64,000 nucleotides of DNA from an uncultured Candidatus Saccharibacteria bacterium (GTDB lineage: Bacteria; Patescibacteriota; Minisyncoccia; Minisyncoccales; UBA5738), in assembly GCA_964470995.1 (NCBI GenBank), contig CAYYEP010000003.1, positions 16,682-80,681 of the forward strand, written 5' to 3'. The notes below the pieces were generated by a model. That model was not told the DNA's origin. It saw only the letters and a program-made list of their open reading frames with translations, and searched no databases. The position numbers were made by a program, and so were the translations under genes. Shown here piece by piece: positions 18,198-53,617 of this stretch (within the stretch, counting starts at the first letter, position 1; each line of letters begins with the position of its first letter).

Positions 18198-18266
18198 CTG
18201 TATTCTGTATTTTAAAGGTAGCTCCTCGGCGGGCGTCGAGGAGCTAACTTGATAAGCTGTATTTAG
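18198..18266. repeat. REP-like hairpin element (divergent)
   Basis: ctgtattctgtattttAAAGGTAGCTCCTCGgcgggcgtCGAGGAGCTAacttgataagctgtattt. Confidence 0.5.
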
Positions 18267-20381: not shown

Positions 20382-22406
20382 ATGTCTAGCAAGAAATTGA
20401 TCGCGGGCATGATTGCCTTTGCGATGGCTGTAGCCGTTGCGCCCAGCGCCAACGCCGCTACTGCCGAAGAACTGGCCGCTCAAATTGCTGCCCTTCAGAG
20501 CCAATTGGCTTCCCTGCAGGGTCAGCTTGGAACGACCACGGGAACGACTACCACAACCACGACCACTACCACGACTGGCACGACTTCGGTCGCCGCTTGC
20601 GCGGGTGTGACCTTTACGAGAAATTTGACTCTCGGTTCCACTGGCACCGATGTCAAATGTTTGCAAGCCCTGTTGAACGGCGATGTCGCGACCGCGGTTG
20701 CGGCCACGGGCGTCGGTTCAGCCGGAAATGAGACCGAGTACTTTGGTGGATTGACCAAGACTGCGGTTATCAAGTTCCAGAACAAGTACGCCGCCGAGGT
20801 TTTGACCCCGGTTGGATTGACTGCCGGCACCGGCTTTGTTGGTGCTTCGACCCGCGCTAAATTGAACGCGATGTTGGCGGGTACAACTACCACCACGACT
20901 GGTGATACTACCACCACGACTGGTGATACTACCACCACCACGACTGGTGATGGTGATGAAGGTGAGTTTACCGTAACCTTGAACTCGACCCCGGCCAACG
21001 GCCAGGATGCCGAGGAAGGCGAAAAAGGTGTTGCCGTAATGGGTCTCAAGATCAAAGCCACTGGCTCTGATATCGAAATCCAGCGCGTAACCTTGGCTTT
21101 CGATGCCAAGCCTTACACCTATTTCGACACGGTGTATTTGTATGATGGATCGACTGTGGTTGCCGAGGCTGACTTGGATTCCGATTCGGTTTCCAAGGTT
21201 GATTCTGACGACTATCGCATCACGATCTCCGGTTTCGAGAATAAATTCACTGTGGCCGAGGGCGCGACCAAGACCATGACGGTCAAGGTTGATGTCAAGG
21301 ATGGCCTCAAGGAATCTTATCTTGACGATACCGTTGCGATCCTTCTGCCGACCGACTCTGCCATTCGCGGTATCGATGAGGCTGGTTTGAATCAGTACGC
21401 CGGTGGTGCCGAGATCACTCGCCGCATCGACATGGCCACTGCCGCGGCCGATGATGCGAACCTGACCGTTAGCGCCAACGATGATACTCCGCTCGACCGC
21501 AACGTGATCGCCGATAACGGCGAGATCGAAGATGCCACTTTGTTGGTCTTCGATGTTGAGGCCGAGGACGACGATATCACGATCACCGACATCAACGATG
21601 TTGTGATCACCAGCGACGCCGCTTCTTCGACGATCGACACGGTTTATTTGTACAACGACAGCAACGAATTGATCGCCGAGTCAAATGTTGACGACGATGG
21701 CGAAGCTAACTTCGAAGATCTCGACGAGACCATTGAGGACGGCGACACCGCTACCTTCACGATCAAATTCGACAAGGATGTTGAGAACGATGATGATTTC
21801 GAGACTGGTATGACCGTGTACGCCACGGTTGACGCCGCCGGTATCGTTGCCGAGAACTCCGACGAGGATGAACTTGATGCCGATCAGTTGAATGGTGATG
21901 CTGCGGGCAACCTGGCTTACCTCTACAACGTTGGTCCTCAATTCACCATTTCGTCCATCACGACTTCCGAGATCCAAGCCACCGATAATACTGCCGCTGG
22001 CATTTCCGCGACCTTCAAGGTTGTGGTTGAAGCGATTGGCGGTGATATCTACCTGGCCAAGAAATCCGATTCCGAGAATTCGTTTGATGTCGAATACTCC
22101 ATTGACGACGCTGCCGGTGTGAATGCGGGTAGCATTACATACACCAAGCCGTCCGGAGCCACCGAAGTTTCCGGCACTGGCGATGTTGCGACCTTCTACG
22201 AGATCGAAGAGGGTGAGAGCCTGACCTTTACGGTCAATGCCACTCAAACCGTTACAACCGATGGTTATTACGATTTGAGAATGGCGGGCATCTCCTGGAC
22301 TGATGCTCTCGACACTGATACTGCCGATATGGTTTCTTCCACCTATATGGATGGCCAGGACGAGTGGATCAGCGACGCCGAGTATCTTCAGGCTGCCGGA
22401 TCCTAG
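20382..22406 (+). CDS. secreted protein: signal peptide, Thr-rich linkers, peptidoglycan-binding-like domain, long Asp/Glu-rich C-terminal region
   Basis: Signal peptide MSSKKLIAGMIAFAMAVAVAPSANA. Poly-T tracts. PG_binding_1-like helix bundle (DVKCLQALLNG...GGLTKTAVIKFQNKYAAEVLTPVGLTAGTGFVGASTRAKLNAML), shared with the C-terminus of 28380-30167. Very acidic repetitive C-terminal half. Confidence 0.6.
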   Translation: MSSKKLIAGMIAFAMAVAVAPSANAATAEELAAQIAALQSQLASLQGQLGTTTGTTTTTTTTTTTGTTSVAACAGVTFTRNLTLGSTGTDVKCLQALLNGDVATAVAATGVGSAGNETEYFGGLTKTAVIKFQNKYAAEVLTPVGLTAGTGFVGASTRAKLNAMLAGTTTTTTGDTTTTTGDTTTTTTGDGDEGEFTVTLNSTPANGQDAEEGEKGVAVMGLKIKATGSDIEIQRVTLAFDAKPYTYFDTVYLYDGSTVVAEADLDSDSVSKVDSDDYRITISGFENKFTVAEGATKTMTVKVDVKDGLKESYLDDTVAILLPTDSAIRGIDEAGLNQYAGGAEITRRIDMATAAADDANLTVSANDDTPLDRNVIADNGEIEDATLLVFDVEAEDDDITITDINDVVITSDAASSTIDTVYLYNDSNELIAESNVDDDGEANFEDLDETIEDGDTATFTIKFDKDVENDDDFETGMTVYATVDAAGIVAENSDEDELDADQLNGDAAGNLAYLYNVGPQFTISSITTSEIQATDNTAAGISATFKVVVEAIGGDIYLAKKSDSENSFDVEYSIDDAAGVNAGSITYTKPSGATEVSGTGDVATFYEIEEGESLTFTVNATQTVTTDGYYDLRMAGISWTDALDTDTADMVSSTYMDGQDEWISDAEYLQAAGS

Positions 22407-22537
22407 TTCTCTCTAAATCGCCTTTCTTGTGGACTGGCGTTACTGGTGGGTTTAACCCTCCGGTATGGCAAAAACCCGCTTAACCGCGGGTTTTTGTTTT
22501 CTTTGTGCGACTGATCCTTCCAACATCGCAAAAAAAG

Positions 22538-22587
22538 TTTGTGCAAGGTCGCACCTTGCACAAATTGTGCAAGGTGCGACCTTGCAA
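22538..22587. repeat. REP doublet (perfect 50-nt palindrome) at the 5' flank of the RAYT gene
   Basis: TTTGTGCAAGGTCGCACCTTGCACAAATTGTGCAAGGTGCGACCTTGCAA. The two arms are exact reverse complements. Confidence 0.85.
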
Positions 22588-22628
22588 TACTTGCCAAAAC
22601 TATTGTCTTTGCTTATTATTGCGATAAT

Positions 22629-23423
22629 ATGCCAAACCTTACTCGTAATTTTGCTATCGGCGATATTTATCATATCTTTAATCGTGGAGTAGAGAAGCGC
22701 GCCGTTTTTATGGATAACTCCGATTACTACCGCTTCGTTTTTTCGCTGTATGAATGTAACGACGAAACTGCGGTTCGGGTTGGCCAGCGTATAATTGAGC
22801 GCCGCCAAAGAAATACCAACAAAGCAAGTTCTGCAAGGTCGCACCTTGCAAGCTTGCAAGGTGCGACCTTGCAGAATTCAGAAGCGCACAAGAGAGAGCT
22901 GTTGGTTGAAGTCGTGGCTTTTACCCTGATGCCTAACCACTATCATCTAATTCTGCGCCAATTGGTTGACGGCGGCATTTCGCTATTTATGAAAAAATTA
23001 GGCAATGCCTATACCGGATATTTTAATGAGCGGCATGAACGTAAAGGGATGGGAGCTCTTTTTCAGGGACGTTTTAAGGCGATACGTATTGCCGATGACC
23101 GGCAATTTTTGCACCTGGCCGAGTATTTGTTTTCAAACCCTGTCGAAATCCTGGAACCGGACTGGAAGCTGGGCGGCGTCCGGGACCCCGCCGCCGCAAT
23201 TGATTTTTTAAATAATTATAAATGGTCAAGCTATTTGGATAGTATCGGTATGAAAAATTTTCCTTCCGTTACCGATCGGGATTTTTTGTGGAAAGTATTC
23301 GCTGGTTCCACGGACGAGCGGAAGGGGAGGTGTCGCGTCAAAGAATTCACCGAAGCCTGGATCAAGAATAAATCAACACTGTTTTCCGGCATTGCTATTG
23401 CTCAAAAAATATCTTTTGATTAG
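22629..23423 (+). CDS. REP-associated tyrosine transposase (RAYT; IS200/IS605-like Y1 HuH transposase, Transposase_17 family)
   Basis: YHIFNRGVEKRAVF N-terminal strand. HuH motif in LMPNHYHLIL. YTGYFNERHERKG and FQGRFKAIRIADD. Catalytic Tyr motif AEYLFSNPVE about 63 aa after HuH. The ORF-track start at 22539 lies inside the REP palindrome, so the Met at 22629 is preferred. Confidence 0.8.
   Translation: MPNLTRNFAIGDIYHIFNRGVEKRAVFMDNSDYYRFVFSLYECNDETAVRVGQRIIERRQRNTNKASSARSHLASLQGATLQNSEAHKRELLVEVVAFTLMPNHYHLILRQLVDGGISLFMKKLGNAYTGYFNERHERKGMGALFQGRFKAIRIADDRQFLHLAEYLFSNPVEILEPDWKLGGVRDPAAAIDFLNNYKWSSYLDSIGMKNFPSVTDRDFLWKVFAGSTDERKGRCRVKEFTEAWIKNKSTLFSGIAIAQKISFD
22831..22874. repeat. REP doublet inserted in-frame inside the RAYT coding sequence
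   Basis: CTGCAAGGTCGCACCTTGCAAGCTTGCAAGGTGCGACCTTGCAG is translated as SSARSHLASLQGATLQNS without breaking the ORF. Confidence 0.8.
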
Positions 23424-23427
23424 TTGA

Positions 23428-23450
23428 ATTGTGCAGGGGTAGGCTTGCAG
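23428..23450. repeat. degenerate REP half-copy at the 3' flank of the RAYT gene
   Basis: ATTGTGCAGGGGTAGGCTTGCAG compared with ATTGTGCAAGGTGCGACCTTGCA. Confidence 0.45.
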
Positions 23451-45664: not shown

Positions 45665-46417
45665 ATGGAAAACAAAAAAAATTCGCTAAATAAAGATTAC
45701 GATGAGATTGACTTGCGCGACGTGGCTGATGTGTTAGTCAAACGAAAAAAGATTATTATATTTTGCACCCTCGCGGCATTGGGTGTCGCGCTGGCCGCAA
45801 GCTTAATGATGCCCAAAATATATCGTGTTCAAACGGCCCTGGAAATAGGGACGGTCGATGGGGGTGTTTTGGTGGAAAGTATTGTTCAGATAAAAGACCG
45901 GGTTGATCGGGGATACTACTCGGAATTTCTTAAAAAAGAAGATACCGCGATATATCCGATAAAAACCGCCAATACCGCTGGCAGCGATATTATTACGCTC
46001 GCCGTTGAATCGCCCGACCGGGAGAGCGCGTTAAGTTTTCTTGAAAATATCGGCCAAATGATTATTGCGGAGCATAATAAATTAACTACGGCGCGCCGTC
46101 AATTTATTGACAGCCAAATTGCCGCCGCCGAATTCAACAGCAAAGACATTTCCGCAAGTATTAAAGCTCCCAGCCAGGAATGTTCCGCGGAAAAATATCT
46201 GGCGATTAATAATTTGGAGTCACATATTCTTAATCTTAAATTTGTTAGAACCCAAATCACCGATACCGCGATAGCGGGCGCGTCGGCGGCGCCGGAGACT
46301 CCGGTAAAACCCAATATTAAATTAAATGCGGTTATGGCCGCAATCTTGGGGCTGTTCTTCGGGGTTTTTGCTGTTTTATTTGGCAATTGGTGGCGGGAAA
46401 GCGGGATGACAAAATAG
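45665..46417 (+). CDS. Wzz-like polysaccharide chain-length determinant (PCP family)
   Basis: N-terminal TM (IIIFCTLAALGVALAASLMM). C-terminal TM (AVMAAILGLFFGVFAVLFG). Periplasmic coiled-coil-like middle. Confidence 0.45.
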   Translation: MENKKNSLNKDYDEIDLRDVADVLVKRKKIIIFCTLAALGVALAASLMMPKIYRVQTALEIGTVDGGVLVESIVQIKDRVDRGYYSEFLKKEDTAIYPIKTANTAGSDIITLAVESPDRESALSFLENIGQMIIAEHNKLTTARRQFIDSQIAAAEFNSKDISASIKAPSQECSAEKYLAINNLESHILNLKFVRTQITDTAIAGASAAPETPVKPNIKLNAVMAAILGLFFGVFAVLFGNWWRESGMTK

Positions 46418-46448: not shown

Positions 46449-46498
46449 TTTGTGCAAGGTCGCACCTTGCAAGCTTGCAAGGTGCGACCTTGCACAAA
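46449..46498. repeat. REP doublet (palindrome) inside the polysaccharide operon
   Basis: TTTGTGCAAGGTCGCACCTTGCAAGCTTGCAAGGTGCGACCTTGCACAAA. Lies between the Wzz-like gene and the ligase-like gene. Confidence 0.85.
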
Positions 46499-49542: not shown

Positions 49543-49560
49543 GTTATTAAAGCCGAAATT

Positions 49561-49607
49561 TTACTTAAGTATATACTTAGTATATACTAAGTATATACTT
49601 AACTTAA
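49561..49607. repeat. three tandem copies of the 12-nt palindrome AAGTATATACTT
   Basis: ttacttAAGTATATACTTagtatatactAAGTATATACTTaacttaa. Candidate operator array. Confidence 0.7.
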
Positions 49608-49778
49608 AAAAATATTTCCCAGTTATTTTTTTTTAGTTTTCCACACTTGACAAACTTGTATGAAGTGAAAAAATAATATTAGGATACTGTAAAATTTTTT
49701 TAAAAAATTTTTCAAGTATCCAACGGTCGAAAATTTTTTTAAAAAAATAACGGACCGCAAAATGGTCCGGCAAAAAAA

Positions 49779-49847
49779 ATGGCAACAAAAAAACCTGTGA
49801 AGAAGGCTGCCAAGAAGAAGCCTGCCGCCAAGAAAAAGAGGAAGTAG
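49779..49847 (+). CDS. tiny lysine/alanine-rich ORF (22 aa, MATKKPVKKAAKKKPAAKKKRK)
   Basis: Immediately follows a cggacc/ggtccg hairpin. Composition resembles a histone H1/Hc1-like tail. Speculative. Confidence 0.25.
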   Translation: MATKKPVKKAAKKKPAAKKKRK

Positions 49848-49911
49848 TTTTCGCAAAACATTTTTTGTGAAACCGCAGTTAAAGCCAGCTTTAATAAACG
49901 ATCATAAAATT

Positions 49912-50004
49912 ATGGTGGTAGTACCGAAAAAAAAGAAGGCTCGTCCTTCAAAAGAAAATAAATTGAAAGCCCGCAAGAGCAAGAAAAGAGTTTCCAACCG
50001 GTAA
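49912..50004 (+). CDS. tiny lysine-rich ORF (30 aa, MVVVPKKKKARPSKENKLKARKSKKRVSNR)
   Basis: A second basic micro-ORF 65 nt downstream of the first. Followed by a 13-bp-stem hairpin at 50052-50093. Confidence 0.25.
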   Translation: MVVVPKKKKARPSKENKLKARKSKKRVSNR

Positions 50005-50051
50005 TTTCTCGCACTGGCAAACTTTTTTCCCGGATAGGGAAGTAAAAATTA

Positions 50052-50093: not shown

Positions 50094-50461
50094 TTTTGTT
50101 GTTGCGTTTATATTGCAATCTCAACCGTGCCGCCGGTTTTTTTATTTACCTGCCAGAATACCTCGGAGCTTTGCCGCGGGGATGAATGGCGGCCGCAGCG
50201 TCGCGGAGGCTAAAAACTTACTCTTCCTAACGCGCAGCGTAAGCGGAGCGGAAGGAATACCTCTGAGCTTTGCCGCGGGGTAGTTTATTTGTATTGGCGG
50301 TAGCTCCCATAGGCGTCGCCAATTGGAGCTTGTGTATTTCGGATTTTTTAAACTTTGATATAATAACTGTACTTCGAGGTATTTTAATTGACCGGCCGCG
50401 CCGATTTATCCGATACAATACATATATGTTTCGGAAAGATTTTCGCGGCGGTTCGTCAAAG

Positions 50462-50809
50462 ATGAATATTATAATCCGGACAAAAAATATCGAAATGACC
50501 CCGACGTTGCGCGAATTCATCGAGACGAAGATAGGTTCCATAGAAAAATACTGCCGTGATTGCCAGGTTGACGACCAGCCGGGGCTGACGGCGGCCGCCG
50601 AAGCCATTGTGGAGGCGGGCAAGGACACTTTGCATCACAAAAAAGGCGACGTCTATACGGCACAGTGTCAGTTTACTTTTAACGGCAATAAAGTTTTGGC
50701 CCGCACCGAAGCCGATGACCTGGAAAAAGCAGTCACCGCGGTTCGCGATGATCTGCAGGACCAATTGACCCGCCTAAAAGGCAAACGCCTTGATAAAAAT
50801 AGAAAATAA
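50462..50809 (+). CDS. hpf: ribosome hibernation promoting factor (HPF/RaiA/YfiA family)
   Basis: MNIIIRTKNIEMTPTLREFIETKIGSIEKY is a typical HPF N-terminus. About 115 aa. The upstream part of the track ORF (50270-) is unlikely to be coding. Confidence 0.7.
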   Translation: MNIIIRTKNIEMTPTLREFIETKIGSIEKYCRDCQVDDQPGLTAAAEAIVEAGKDTLHHKKGDVYTAQCQFTFNGNKVLARTEADDLEKAVTAVRDDLQDQLTRLKGKRLDKNRK

Positions 50810-53557: not shown

Positions 53558-53617
53558 CGTATTTTGAGATCGTACCTCGGCGTAATCGCCGAGGTGCGAT
53601 CTCGGCAAACTCGCATT
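53558..53617. repeat. REP-like hairpin element
   Basis: cgtattttgaGATCGTACCTCGGCGtaatCGCCGAGGTGCGATCtcggcaaactcgcattt, followed by aactgtttttttt. Confidence 0.7.

What the first reader, a model, noticed from the sequence alone, without database searches (positions are those of the whole stretch)
22538..23450. REP-associated tyrosine transposase (RAYT) flanked by its own palindromic REP doublets (REPIN-like unit)
The ORF at 22629-23423 carries the full Y1 HuH transposase signature: NHYHLIL, GRFKA, and the C-terminal Tyr motif AEYLFSNPVE. Directly upstream is a perfect 50-nt palindrome TTTGTGCAAGGTCGCACCTTGCACAAATTGTGCAAGGTGCGACCTTGCAA. Downstream is a decayed half-copy ATTGTGCAGGGGTAGGCTTGCAG. 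The same 17-mer core GCAAGGTCGCACCTTGC recurs as doublets at 22831-22874 and 46449-46498. This is the RAYT-plus-inverted-REP architecture that is well characterised in Proteobacteria. Here it sits in a genome whose gene content looks CPR-like, where I am not aware of it being described. It offers a mechanistic explanation for the dispersed hairpin family reported separately.
Basis: partly seen in the sequence, partly recalled or inferred. Interest (0 to 1): 0.75.

Follow-up and report, generated by a model that had tools for sequence, protein, structure and literature searches.

The report
CPR RAYT gene carrying its own hairpins
A single-copy, RAYT-like DNA-cutting enzyme gene in a candidate-phyla-radiation bacterium has the same palindromic hairpin upstream, inside its own reading frame and (decayed) downstream, and relatives keep this three-site layout while the hairpin sequence changes in step at all sites.

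Summary

It is in frame and encodes S67-N83 of a disordered loop.

This layout is family-wide. Of 63 metagenomic loci with both flanks held (41-74% identity), 41 carry one hairpin upstream, inside the pre-HuH linker and downstream. The hairpin differs between loci but matches within a locus (arm identity 0.83 against 0.43). Seven loci, the window included, share gene order, so the gene is vertically inherited and its hairpins evolve in concert.

The hairpins are atypical REPs: perfect stems, 3-nt loop, conserved RGT/ACY apex, no GT[AG]G foot. Copy number is low, about one dispersed site per 60 kb. A related MAG carries them in frame in UvrC-like and ThiI-like genes.

In-frame REPs inside tnpAREP are already known for subclass 2.4, at another position. 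Verdict: a new variant of a known kind, and I found no paper describing it in CPR. The homogenising mechanism is inferred.

The parts
22538..22587 (.). Upstream (U) REP doublet. It holds two inverted hairpins: 22538-22564 (12-bp stem, loop CGC) and 22568-22586 (8-bp stem, loop GCG). Together they form a 45-nt perfect palindrome at 22542-22586. The doublet lies between the terminator-like hairpin after the upstream gene (22467-22498) and the promoter-like site of the RAYT gene.
   Evidence: (-29.3 kcal/mol, z -10.5)
22591..22619 (+). Promoter-like site TTGCCA-17-TATTAT, a 10/12 consensus match, placed between the U doublet and the ATG. This is weak evidence only.
   Evidence: the number of such sites in the region is not above shuffles
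22629..23423 (+). RAYT-like Y1 HuH gene of 264 aa. It has a core with the TnpAREP fold and a C-terminal extension of about 90 aa carrying an invariant W199-S200 motif.
22829..22876 (.). Intragenic (I) REP doublet. It is a 48-nt perfect palindrome (TGCAAGGT-CGC-ACCTTGCA AGCT TGCAAGGT-GCG-ACCTTGCA with 3-bp extensions). It is in frame and encodes S67-N83 of the low-confidence loop between helix 51-64 and strand 93-100.
   Evidence: (pLDDT below 50 for residues 62-85)
22935..22946 (+). HuH motif N103-H104-Y105-H106.
   Evidence: invariant in 25 sequences; aligns to PEHMH of 4ER8
23124..23141 (+). Catalytic-Tyr motif Y166-L-F-S-N170-P171, the class-2 'Y---NP' signature.
   Evidence: PMC6006769 Table 1
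23428..23450 (.). Downstream (D) site, starting 4 nt after the stop codon. It is a decayed half-copy of the REP and no longer folds stably.
   Evidence: z 0.34; score 11, reached by 0.2% of random windows; orthologues have intact D doublets at this position
46449..46498 (.). Dispersed REP doublet. It is a 50-nt perfect palindrome with the same AGCT-spacer form as the intragenic copy. It lies between the gene ending at 46417 and the probable start MENKG of the next gene.
   Evidence: (-31.7 kcal/mol, z -11)

Best explanation
The locus is a REPtron-like unit of a Patescibacteria (CPR) lineage. It combines a resident, vertically inherited, single-copy RAYT-type Y1 HuH nuclease/transferase gene with copies of its cognate hairpin.

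Hairpin sites. The hairpin sits at three fixed sites: just upstream of the gene, in frame inside the linker that precedes the HuH motif, and just after the stop codon. A few further copies are dispersed in the genome. In the window's clade each site holds an inverted doublet, that is, a REPIN-like long palindrome.

What is shown:
- the fold and the catalytic motifs;
- the three-site layout across the family;
- the fixed chromosomal position of the gene;
- that the hairpin sequence differs between orthologous loci but is the same at the sites within a locus;
- that the intragenic copy encodes a disordered surface loop;
- that the same hairpin occurs in frame in other genes of a related genome.

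What is inferred:
- The enzyme binds the conserved apex (RGT-NNN-ACY) of the hairpin extruded in single-stranded DNA, as TnpAREP and IS200/IS605 TnpA do.
- Its cleavage and rejoining, or short-patch conversion between copies less than 1 kb apart, keeps the copies alike and generates the doublets and the dispersed copies.
- The intragenic copy persists because it lies in a tolerant loop. Possibly it also persists because a long hairpin in the gene or its mRNA limits RAYT expression.
For: Protein:
- Pfam Y1_Tnp is above its cutoff.
- A profile search of PDB sequences gives 4ER8 TnpAREP as best hit, with HuH and Y..NP aligned.
- The AF2 model has pTM 0.75.
- H104, H106, Y166, N170 and P171 are invariant in 25 homologues.

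Three-site layout:
- 41 of 63 distinct loci with both flanks available carry the same hairpin at U, I and D (sequences).
- Arm identity outside the apex is 0.83 within a locus and 0.43 between loci. Arms are 7/7 identical in 53% of within-locus pairs and 2.7% of between-locus pairs.

Fixed position of the I site:
- Linker length is the same with and without a perfect hairpin (50.9 against 50.7 aa).
- The loop sits 60 nt before the HuH codons in many loci that have different stems (CACGGGT, CCGGGGT, CAGGGGT, CACAGGT).
- The reading frame of the loop is clade-specific.

Vertical inheritance:
- W, L001, L014, L015/L049, L017, L018 and L019 share the gene order around the RAYT gene.
- Their hairpins nevertheless differ: GCAAGGT-cgc, GCAAGGT-ttc, TCTAGGT, CATAGGT.

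Doublet-level compensation: L015 and L017 keep a perfect long palindrome while each single hairpin acquires a mismatch.

Mobility and dispersal:
- The window has an identical doublet at 46449-46498.
- The related MAG JBAYLX01 carries the 19-mer on four contigs. It lies in frame in a UvrC-like and a ThiI-like gene.
- In 369 kb of flanks more than 300 nt from the gene there are 10 copies at six sites. My own estimate of the chance expectation is about 0.1.

Paralogues: two paralogues on one Nealsonbacteria contig carry related but distinct hairpins, ACACCGGT and ACACGGGT.

Disordered loop: residues 62-85 have pLDDT below 50 and no secondary structure.
Against: - No activity data exist. Binding, cleavage and homogenisation by the enzyme are inferred from the fold and from the E. 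coli and IS608 precedents.
- The canonical GT[AG]G guide is absent, so the recognition rules of TnpAREP may not transfer.
- Copy number is low, about one dispersed site per 60 kb. In most loci no copy is seen beyond the gene. The 'REP family' character is therefore weak.
- The NCBIfam equivalog threshold is not met.
- The source genome itself could not be scanned. It is not in the GTDB representative set and its protein is not on record in the contig index.
- The window's own D site is decayed.
- About a third of loci lack a perfect hairpin at one or more sites.
- Concerted evolution could be ordinary short-tract gene conversion with no role for the enzyme.
Confidence: 0.72

Rival explanations
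1. The intragenic hairpin is a functional cis-element rather than a passenger. By forming a long hairpin in the gene's single-stranded DNA or in its mRNA, it would give the enzyme a binding or cleavage site inside its own gene, or give RNase/ribosome-level attenuation. Either way RAYT output would be self-limited. Selection for recognition at all three sites would then explain why they change together.
For: - The position is kept across relatives of 41-74% identity, with no 'empty' state. Linker length is the same with and without a perfect hairpin.
- The hairpin stays a perfect palindrome in most loci although it is coding.
- At frame-0 I sites the loop is never a stop codon. TGA/TAA loops seen at U and D are replaced there by TCA/TTA or another loop, yet the stem is retained.
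- U-site loops are orientation-biased (22 against 3), which suggests strand-specific function at least at U.
- From general knowledge: IS200 tnpA is known to be held down by a terminator hairpin and an mRNA stem-loop.
Against: - The same REP sits in frame in unrelated genes (UvrC-like, ThiI-like) of a relative. Orthologues of the UvrC-like gene show filled and empty slots. In-frame residence therefore does not need a RAYT-specific function.
- About 20 of the roughly 60 loci examined have only degenerate I-site hairpins.
- The encoded peptide is disordered.
- No expression data exist.
Confidence: 0.3
2. It is an ordinary autonomous IS200/IS605-type insertion sequence. The upstream and downstream hairpins would be its left and right subterminal ends, and the gene would move together with them.
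For: - Hairpins lie within 0-90 nt of both ends of the ORF in most loci.
- The fold is shared with IS608 and ISDra2 TnpA.
- Public records label the protein 'transposase'.
Against: - The Tyr motif is Y---NP (class 2), not Y---Q as in IS200 subclass 1.1 (PMC6006769 Table 1).
- There is one copy in 64 kb.
- Gene order around the gene is conserved in seven loci, the window included, at 58-72% RAYT identity. Neighbouring proteins are 35-65% identical, which means long vertical residence at one site.
- The two paralogues on one contig differ in length (245 and 240 aa) and in hairpin variant, so they are not identical copies.
- No relatives occur on IMG/VR viral contigs.
- No second ORF lies between the flanking hairpins of the window locus, so there is no tnpB partner.
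Confidence: 0.05
3. The palindromes are simply intrinsic transcription terminators or insulators of a compact genome, and they only happen to resemble each other. The Y1 protein would be unrelated to them.
For: - D-site hairpins are often flanked by A-runs and T-runs, for example AAAAATACACAGGT-tca-ACCTGTGTATTTTT.
- The consensus scan scores the doublets as terminator-like on the minus strand.
- The dispersed copy in the window lies between two co-directional genes.
Against: - Identical sequence, including the loop or its reverse complement, occurs at U, I and D of one locus and differs between loci.
- One copy is inside a reading frame, where termination would be harmful.
- In-frame copies occur in other genes.
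- The upstream gene has its own different terminator-like hairpin at 22467-22498.
- The association with this gene family holds in 41 of 63 loci.
Confidence: 0.05

Closest known systems
E. coli TnpAREP / RAYT with its REPtron (PDB 4ER8; Nunvar 2010, Ton-Hoang 2012 and Messing 2012 as summarised in PMC6006769 and PMC5581495)
   Same: - It is a single-copy resident gene bracketed by its cognate palindromes.
- Palindromes are also arranged as inverted doublets (REPINs).
- A few to many copies occur elsewhere in the genome.
   Different: - There is no GT[AG]G foot.
- Stems are perfect with a 3-nt loop, not imperfect bulged stems.
- Copy number is very low.
- The protein carries a C-terminal extension of about 90 aa and scores below the NCBIfam equivalog cutoff.
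- A cognate hairpin lies inside the coding sequence.
- The host is a CPR/Patescibacteria lineage.
TnpAY1 subclass 2.4 (Bertels group 4; Cyanobacteria and Bacteroidetes) with in-frame REP insertions inside tnpAREP (Quentin et al. 2018, PMC6006769)
   Same: The cognate REP is present inside the RAYT gene without breaking the frame, in a peripheral variable region, in addition to the flanking REPs.
   Different: - There the inserts lie between the HuH and Tyr motifs. Here the site is N-terminal of HuH, between helix 51-64 and strand 93-100.
- There the REPs are GT[AG]G-type long or double-foot REPs. Here the hairpins are untagged.
- The motifs differ: NH[IFV]H/WQ/YIxNNP there against NHYH/FQ/Y(L/V/I)FSNP here.
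- Here the site is kept across the whole family, and it co-varies with the flanking copies at a syntenic locus.
TnpAY1 subclass 2.1 / TIRYT (Bertels group 1; De Nocera 2013, PMC3733652)
   Same: - The motif pattern in Table 1 of PMC6006769 (NH[YF]H, FQ, Y..NP) matches.
- The length of about 240 aa matches.
- Both have a C-terminal extension with a Ser motif (here W199-S200-S201).
- Both have flanking repeats that are not GTAG REPs, some of them self-complementary, with low-copy repeat families.
   Different: - Subclass 2.1 is reported without REP-like hairpins. Its TIRs carry GGGGWSAS, which these hairpins do not match.
- Its C-terminal domain is HTH/DnaA_C-like, and no such Pfam hit appears here.
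- Placement was judged from published motifs only, not from a tree.
IS200/IS605 TnpA (IS608, ISDra2)
   Same: It shares the Y1 HuH fold and subterminal hairpins on both sides of the gene. Single-stranded-DNA hairpin recognition is the likely mode of action.
   Different: - IS200/IS605 has a Y---Q motif and is multi-copy and mobile.
- It has imperfect hairpins with separate guide and cleavage sequences.
- It often has a tnpB partner.
- None of these is seen here.
Rickettsia palindromic elements and intragenic REPs in repair genes (Ogata et al. as cited in PMC3733652; De Nocera 2013)
   Same: Short palindromic repeats sit in frame inside protein-coding genes, often DNA-repair genes. Here they are in a UvrC-like gene of a related MAG. 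They encode extra loop peptides.
   Different: Those cases were not reported as being tied to a resident Y1 gene that carries the same element inside itself.

Membership tests
RAYT / TnpAREP (class 2 TnpAY1) | Y1 HuH (RNase-H-unrelated, ferredoxin-like) transposase fold | tested here: met
   [not shown]
RAYT / TnpAREP (class 2 TnpAY1) | HuH motif plus a single catalytic Tyr in a Y---NP motif | tested here: met
   NHYH is at 103-106 and Y166-LFS-N170-P171 follows. Both are invariant in 25 homologues. They align to PEHMH and YIYINP of 4ER8. The class-2 signature is given in PMC6006769.
RAYT / TnpAREP (class 2 TnpAY1) | Score above the curated NCBIfam equivalog model REP_Tyr_transpos (NF047646) | tested here: not met
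   The score is 40.1 bits against a cutoff of 80. It is a relative, not the proteobacterial equivalog.
RAYT / TnpAREP (class 2 TnpAY1) | Gene flanked by its cognate palindromic repeats (REPtron) | tested here: met
   The window has an upstream doublet at 22538-22587 and a decayed downstream copy at 23428-23450. Of 63 related loci, 41 have the same hairpin upstream, inside and downstream.
RAYT / TnpAREP (class 2 TnpAY1) | Single or low copy number, vertical inheritance | tested here: met
   There is one copy in 64 kb. Gene order is conserved in seven loci, the window included. One genome has two paralogues that are not identical in length or hairpin variant. No relatives occur on viral contigs. 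Whole-genome copy number of the source organism could not be tested.
RAYT / TnpAREP (class 2 TnpAY1) | The flanking palindrome is dispersed and over-represented in the genome | tested here: inconclusive
   It is dispersed but at low copy number. The window has one extra doublet. The related MAG has at least four extra sites. There are 10 copies at six sites in 369 kb of flanks. No complete genome was available.
RAYT / TnpAREP (class 2 TnpAY1) | Canonical REP anatomy: GT[AG]G tetranucleotide at the 5' foot of the hairpin | tested here: not met
   Only 9 of 121 flanking hairpins have GT[AG]G or CYAC near a foot. The apex RGT/ACY is conserved instead. PMC6006769 notes that subclasses 2.6 and 3 also lack it, so this feature defines canonical REPs rather than all class-2 systems.
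RAYT / TnpAREP (class 2 TnpAY1) | Sequence-specific binding and cleavage of the single-stranded REP hairpin | not testable with these tools
   This needs biochemistry.
IS200/IS605 TnpA (subclass 1.1) | Y---Q catalytic motif | tested here: not met
   The motif is Y166-LFS-N-P. The subclass signature is in PMC6006769 Table 1.
IS200/IS605 TnpA (subclass 1.1) | Multiple near-identical copies at varying sites | tested here: not met
   The window has a single copy. The locus is syntenic across the clade.
TnpAY1 subclass 2.4 (in-frame REP in tnpAREP) | REP inside the gene, reading frame kept | tested here: met
   The 48-nt doublet spans 16 codons and the frame stays open. The same holds at the I site of the related loci.
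TnpAY1 subclass 2.4 (in-frame REP in tnpAREP) | Insert between the HuH and Tyr motifs; WQ motif; GT[AG]G long or double-foot REP | tested here: not met
   The insert is at residues 67-83, before HuH at 103-106. The motif is FQ, not WQ. There is no GT[AG]G foot.
TnpAY1 subclass 2.1 / TIRYT | NH[YF]H / FQ / Y..NP motifs, about 238 aa, C-terminal domain with Ser motif | tested here: inconclusive
   The motifs and length agree with Table 1 of PMC6006769. No HTH/DnaA_C Pfam hit was found.
TnpAY1 subclass 2.1 / TIRYT | No REP hairpins; flanking TIRs with GGGGWSAS | tested here: not met
   The flanks are self-complementary hairpins with a mean perfect stem of 12 bp.

The most novel reading that the evidence does not exclude
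Across a large CPR-wide family, the RAYT gene carries its own substrate hairpin as a permanent in-frame 'slot'. An active templated replacement process, catalysed by the enzyme, would rewrite that slot, the two flanking sites and further slots in other genes (for example UvrC-like) in step whenever hairpin specificity shifts. That would be in-situ hairpin exchange rather than insertion and excision. It would make this a natural record of enzyme-substrate co-evolution, and possibly a self-regulating circuit.
Probability: 0.3. Interest if true: 0.75.

Novelty: new variant of a known kind. Interest (0 to 1): 0.6.

Why it matters
RAYT-REPIN systems are studied as long-lived, vertically inherited replicators, almost entirely in Proteobacteria and Cyanobacteria.

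- Reach. This family extends them to the ultra-small, intergenic-poor genomes of the candidate phyla radiation. It comprises 186 clusters at 50% identity with E up to 1e-30.
- Simplicity. The form is stripped down: three gene-associated sites plus a handful of dispersed ones.
- A readable record. The gene stays at one chromosomal site while its hairpins change in concert. Orthologous loci therefore give a direct readout of how enzyme specificity and substrate co-evolve, and of how singlets become doublets.
- A warning for annotators. Part of the 'protein' sequence of these genes (G-x-T flanked by Q..L, I..Y, T..R, K..F or R..P) is dictated by DNA palindromy, not by protein function.
- An experimental handle. 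The in-frame copy allows the arms to be recoded synonymously, to ask whether such hairpins regulate their own enzyme.

Tried and rejected
Searches that found nothing:
- Rfam over the whole window at gathering thresholds, and ARAGORN.
- An exact look-up of the window's protein in the contig index: not on record.
- IMG/VR viral contigs: no relatives.
- The afdb50 fold library was unavailable.

Source genome. The genome-contig scan with the 19-mer did not recover the source genome. It found a related Paceibacterota MAG. The nine single hits in MAGs and genomes of other lineages (for example Erythrobacter, Lampropedia, Anaerolineales, Curtobacterium) I treat as chance, with one hit per genome.

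Literature. Searches for RAYT together with CPR names gave only false word matches or nothing relevant.

Readings rejected:
- Insertion sequence, because of the motif, the synteny and the copy number.
- Plain terminators, because one copy is in frame and the sequence is locus-specific.
- That the other palindromes in the window (18210-18255, 49559-49608, 53566-53603) belong to the same family. A scan for GT-NNN-AC-apex hairpins found the six known REP hairpins plus one unrelated hit (22445-22461), seven in all against a shuffle mean of 3.1.
- That loci lacking a perfect I-site hairpin lack the insert. Linker length is the same, and several hold degenerate copies.

Not attempted:
- A consistent U/I/D loop orientation rule does not exist. 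U and D are the same in 8 loci and inverted in 10. U singlets alone are biased, and that count is not corrected for relatedness.
- I did not run a formal covariation test on the I-site stems. Selecting perfect hairpins would make it circular, so I report within-locus against between-locus identity instead.
Full report
**1. What is in the window**

The ORF at 22629-23423 (+) encodes 264 aa.

The 17-mer GCAAGGTCGCACCTTGC is a 7-bp stem with a CGC loop. Read on both strands it occurs six times, against 0.01 expected. The six hits form three inverted doublets:
- 22538-22587, ending 42 nt upstream of the ATG;
- 22829-22876;
- 46449-46498.

Each doublet folds as single-stranded DNA at -29 to -32 kcal/mol, z about -10.5 to -11.

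Two details of the finding need correcting. First, the upstream element is a 45-nt perfect palindrome (22542-22586), not a 50-nt one. Its left hairpin has a longer, 12-bp stem. Second, the 22829-22876 doublet lies inside the ORF. It is 48 nt, or 16 codons, in frame, and encodes S67-N83, SSARSHLASLQGATLQN.

The string after the stop codon (23428-23450) resembles the right half-REP. Its alignment score of 11 is reached by 0.2% of random windows. It no longer folds (z 0.34).

The window holds one copy of the gene and no further hairpins of this family. It has no tRNA gene and no Rfam match. Of 48 ORFs of at least 80 aa, 46 are on the + strand.

**2. The protein**

Sequence evidence:
- Pfam Y1_Tnp scores above its cutoff, 27 against 23 bits.
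- NCBIfam REP_Tyr_transpos scores 40 bits, below its equivalog cutoff of 80.
- A profile of 25 homologues finds 4ER8, E. coli TnpAREP bound to a REP hairpin, as the best PDB sequence (E 0.008). NHYH aligns to HMH and YLFSNPV to YIYINPV.

Structure evidence:
- The AlphaFold model has pLDDT 74 and pTM 0.75.

H104, H106, Y166, N170 and P171 are invariant. Y---NP is the class-2 (TnpAREP) signature, whereas IS200 has Y---Q (PMC6006769 Table 1). Residues 62-85, which include the REP-encoded peptide, are modelled as coil with pLDDT below 50.

**3. The family and its three-site layout**

The protein has more than 1000 homologues at E up to 1e-3 in the 90% clusters. The named ones are 'transposase' of Paceibacterota, Nealsonbacteria, the Patescibacteria group and one Omnitrophica MAG. 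In the 50% cluster library there are 186 clusters at E up to 1e-30 and 3538 at E up to 1e-10.

The protein alignment gave the first clue. Homologues keep a G-x-T motif at the place of the window's REP peptide. It is flanked by residue pairs Q..L, I..Y, T..R, K..F and R..P. Those are codons that are reverse complements of each other, which points to a DNA hairpin.

I fetched 80 related loci from metagenomes, at 41-74% identity, and confirmed this at the DNA level.
- Most loci have a perfect hairpin in the linker before HuH. It has a 3-nt loop and a stem of 6-17 bp, and starts 150-230 nt after the ATG.
- The same hairpin recurs 3-111 nt (typically 10-60 nt) before the ATG and 0-30 nt after the stop.
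- Of 63 distinct loci with both flanks held, 41 have all three sites, 5 have upstream plus inside, and 5 have upstream plus downstream.
- The hairpin differs from locus to locus: CATAGGT, ACACAGGT, CACGGGT, CAGGGGT, GCCGGGGT, TACGAAGT, TCTGAAGT, TCGGAGGT and others.
- Outside the three apex bases, arm identity is 0.83 within a locus and 0.43 between loci. Arms are fully identical in 53% of within-locus pairs and 2.7% of between-locus pairs.
- The apex is conserved. Of 121 flanking hairpins, 93 end in GGT or AGT. The mean perfect stem is 12 bp. GT[AG]G feet are essentially absent, at 9 of 121.
- U and D loops are always identical or reverse complements of each other, 8 against 10 loci. They are therefore copies of one element in either orientation.

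**4. A resident gene with hairpins that change in concert**

Seven loci share the same gene order: W, L001, L014, L015/L049, L017, L018 and L019. The order is four or five upstream genes, then the 674-aa protein, then the RAYT gene, then the 267-aa protein. Neighbouring proteins are 35-65% identical and the RAYT proteins 58-72%. The gene has therefore sat at one site through long divergence. That argues against an insertion sequence.

Yet the hairpins at this one site differ between loci: GCAAGGT-cgc (W, L001, L015, L017), GCAAGGT-ttc (L014, at all three sites, all doublets), TCTAGGT (L018) and CATAGGT (L019).

Several observations show the I site is an old, fixed feature whose sequence is overwritten, not a set of recent insertions.
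- Linker length is the same whether or not a perfect hairpin is present, 50.9 against 50.7 aa.
- In many loci the loop is exactly 60 nt before the HuH codons although the stems differ.
- The loop is in frame 0 (G-x-T) in the clade of at least 48% identity, and mostly in frame 2 (E-V-x-L/P-R) in the 43-47% clade.
- Where the flanking loop is TGA or TAA, a frame-0 I site uses TCA, TTA or another loop. It never uses a stop codon.
- In L015 and L017, an A-to-G change in the outer left arm of the doublet is matched by T-to-C in the outer right arm. The long palindrome stays perfect while each single hairpin gains a mismatch. What is kept is the doublet-level (REPIN-like) pairing.
- Two paralogues on one Nealsonbacteria contig carry related but distinct hairpins, ACACCGGT and ACACGGGT.

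**5. Dispersal**

The source genome is not among the GTDB representatives. A related Paceibacterota MAG (JBAYLX01) carries the 19-mer on four contigs.
- One contig holds the RAYT orthologue, with a singlet upstream, a doublet inside and a singlet downstream.
- The other contigs hold copies without a RAYT gene.
- A doublet and a singlet lie in frame in a UvrC-like GIY-YIG gene (..CARSHLASLQGATLHS.. and ..FVQGRTLHN..).
- A singlet lies in frame in a ThiI-like gene.

In an alignment of 15 UvrC-like orthologues, the same two positions are empty in some and filled with different hairpin-type peptides in others.

Across 49 loci, 369 kb of flank more than 300 nt from the gene holds 10 copies at six sites. 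By my own calculation about 0.1 would be expected by chance. The element is therefore dispersed, but at roughly one site per 60 kb. That is far below classical REPs.

**6. How it most likely works**

Shown: a TnpAREP-fold enzyme with intact catalytic motifs; a cognate hairpin at three fixed gene-associated sites and a few dispersed ones; vertical inheritance; concerted change; in-frame tolerance in a disordered loop.

Inferred, from the E. coli TnpAREP and IS608 precedents:
- The enzyme recognises the conserved apex of the hairpin when it is extruded in single-stranded DNA.
- Its cleavage and rejoining, or short-tract conversion between copies less than 1 kb apart, homogenises the copies, makes doublets from singlets and seeds new sites.

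The intragenic copy may be only a tolerated passenger. In-frame REPs in tnpAREP subclass 2.4, in repair genes and in Rickettsia are prior art (PMC6006769, PMC3733652). Alternatively it may be a cis-regulatory hairpin. Its fixed position and its maintenance as a perfect palindrome leave that open.

A promoter-like TTGCCA-17-TATTAT lies between the U doublet and the ATG. If it is real, the I copy is transcribed and U is not. The D remnant also lies downstream of it. U-site singlet loops are orientation-biased: TGA 14 against TCA 2, TGC 5 against GCA 1, TAA 3 against TTA 0. D-site loops are not. This count is uncorrected for relatedness.

**7. Comparison with known families, and novelty**

It works like a RAYT/REPtron and passes the fold, motif, flanking-repeat and low-copy tests. 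It fails the GT[AG]G and NCBIfam-equivalog tests, and its dispersal is weak.

It is not subclass 2.4, because the insert position, the WQ motif and the REP type all differ. Its motifs (NHYH, FQ, Y..SNP, W-S-S, about 240-265 aa) most resemble subclass 2.1/TIRYT, which is described as lacking REP hairpins. I could not build the tree.

I found no paper in the held library that treats RAYTs in CPR.

My verdict is a new variant of a known kind.

Noticed in passing
L011 3981-5141 (+) and L003 2102-3061 (-), related MAG JBAYLX01; protein alignment A3: The same REP is inserted in frame in a UvrC-like GIY-YIG nuclease gene (a doublet and a singlet) and in a ThiI-like gene. In 15 UvrC-like orthologues, two fixed 'slots' are either empty or filled with different hairpin-type peptides (QG.TL, RGSTP, GDTY, GPTP, EVKPP).
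   Followed up: partly
U and D sites of loci L014-L095: Upstream singlet hairpins have a loop-orientation bias on the sense strand: TGA 14 against TCA 2, TGC 5 against GCA 1, TAA 3 against TTA 0. Downstream ones do not (TGA 11 against TCA 8). The counts are not corrected for relatedness of the loci.
   Followed up: partly
L019 6001-6747 and flanks: The upstream and intragenic hairpins are the CATAGGT type, but the downstream site holds a doublet of the CAAGGT-ttc type seen in L014. Two hairpin types therefore occur at one locus.
   Followed up: no
window 49559-49757 and 49780-50010: A 770-nt intergenic region holds an AT-rich inverted doublet (TTAAGTATATACTTAGT ATAT ACTAAGTATATACTTAA) and several A/T palindromes. 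It also holds at least one tiny Lys-rich ORF, for example MATKKPVKKAAKKKPAAKKKRK at about 49780-49848. The only Rfam hit is sub-threshold (Hrs13, 24 bits against 52).
   Followed up: partly
window 53566-53603 and 18210-18255: Two other palindromes lie just after genes. GAGATCGTACCTCGGCG TAAT CGCCGAGGTGCGATCTC has halves that share the GGT-GCG-A apex and loop with the REP but have different stems. AAAGGTAGCTCCTCGGCG..CGTCGAGGAGCTAACTT is the second. Neither matches the 17-mer within 2 mismatches.
   Followed up: partly
window about 50158-50182 and 50257-50281: A direct repeat AATACCTC(G/T)GAGCTTTGCCGCGGGG occurs about 100 nt apart, upstream of the gene at 50270-50809.
   Followed up: no
window 1-64000: Of 48 ORFs of at least 80 aa, 46 are on the + strand. 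No tRNA gene was found and nothing reached an Rfam gathering score in 64 kb.
   Followed up: no
window 20382-22406: The 674-aa upstream neighbour has long Thr-rich low-complexity runs. It is the conserved syntenic partner of the RAYT gene in seven loci, the window included, and L014 has a second paralogous copy upstream.
   Followed up: no
L015/L049 6001-6858: In this orthologue the ORF reads through the downstream REP doublet (285 aa instead of about 255). The D-site doublet is therefore translated at the C-terminus.
   Followed up: no
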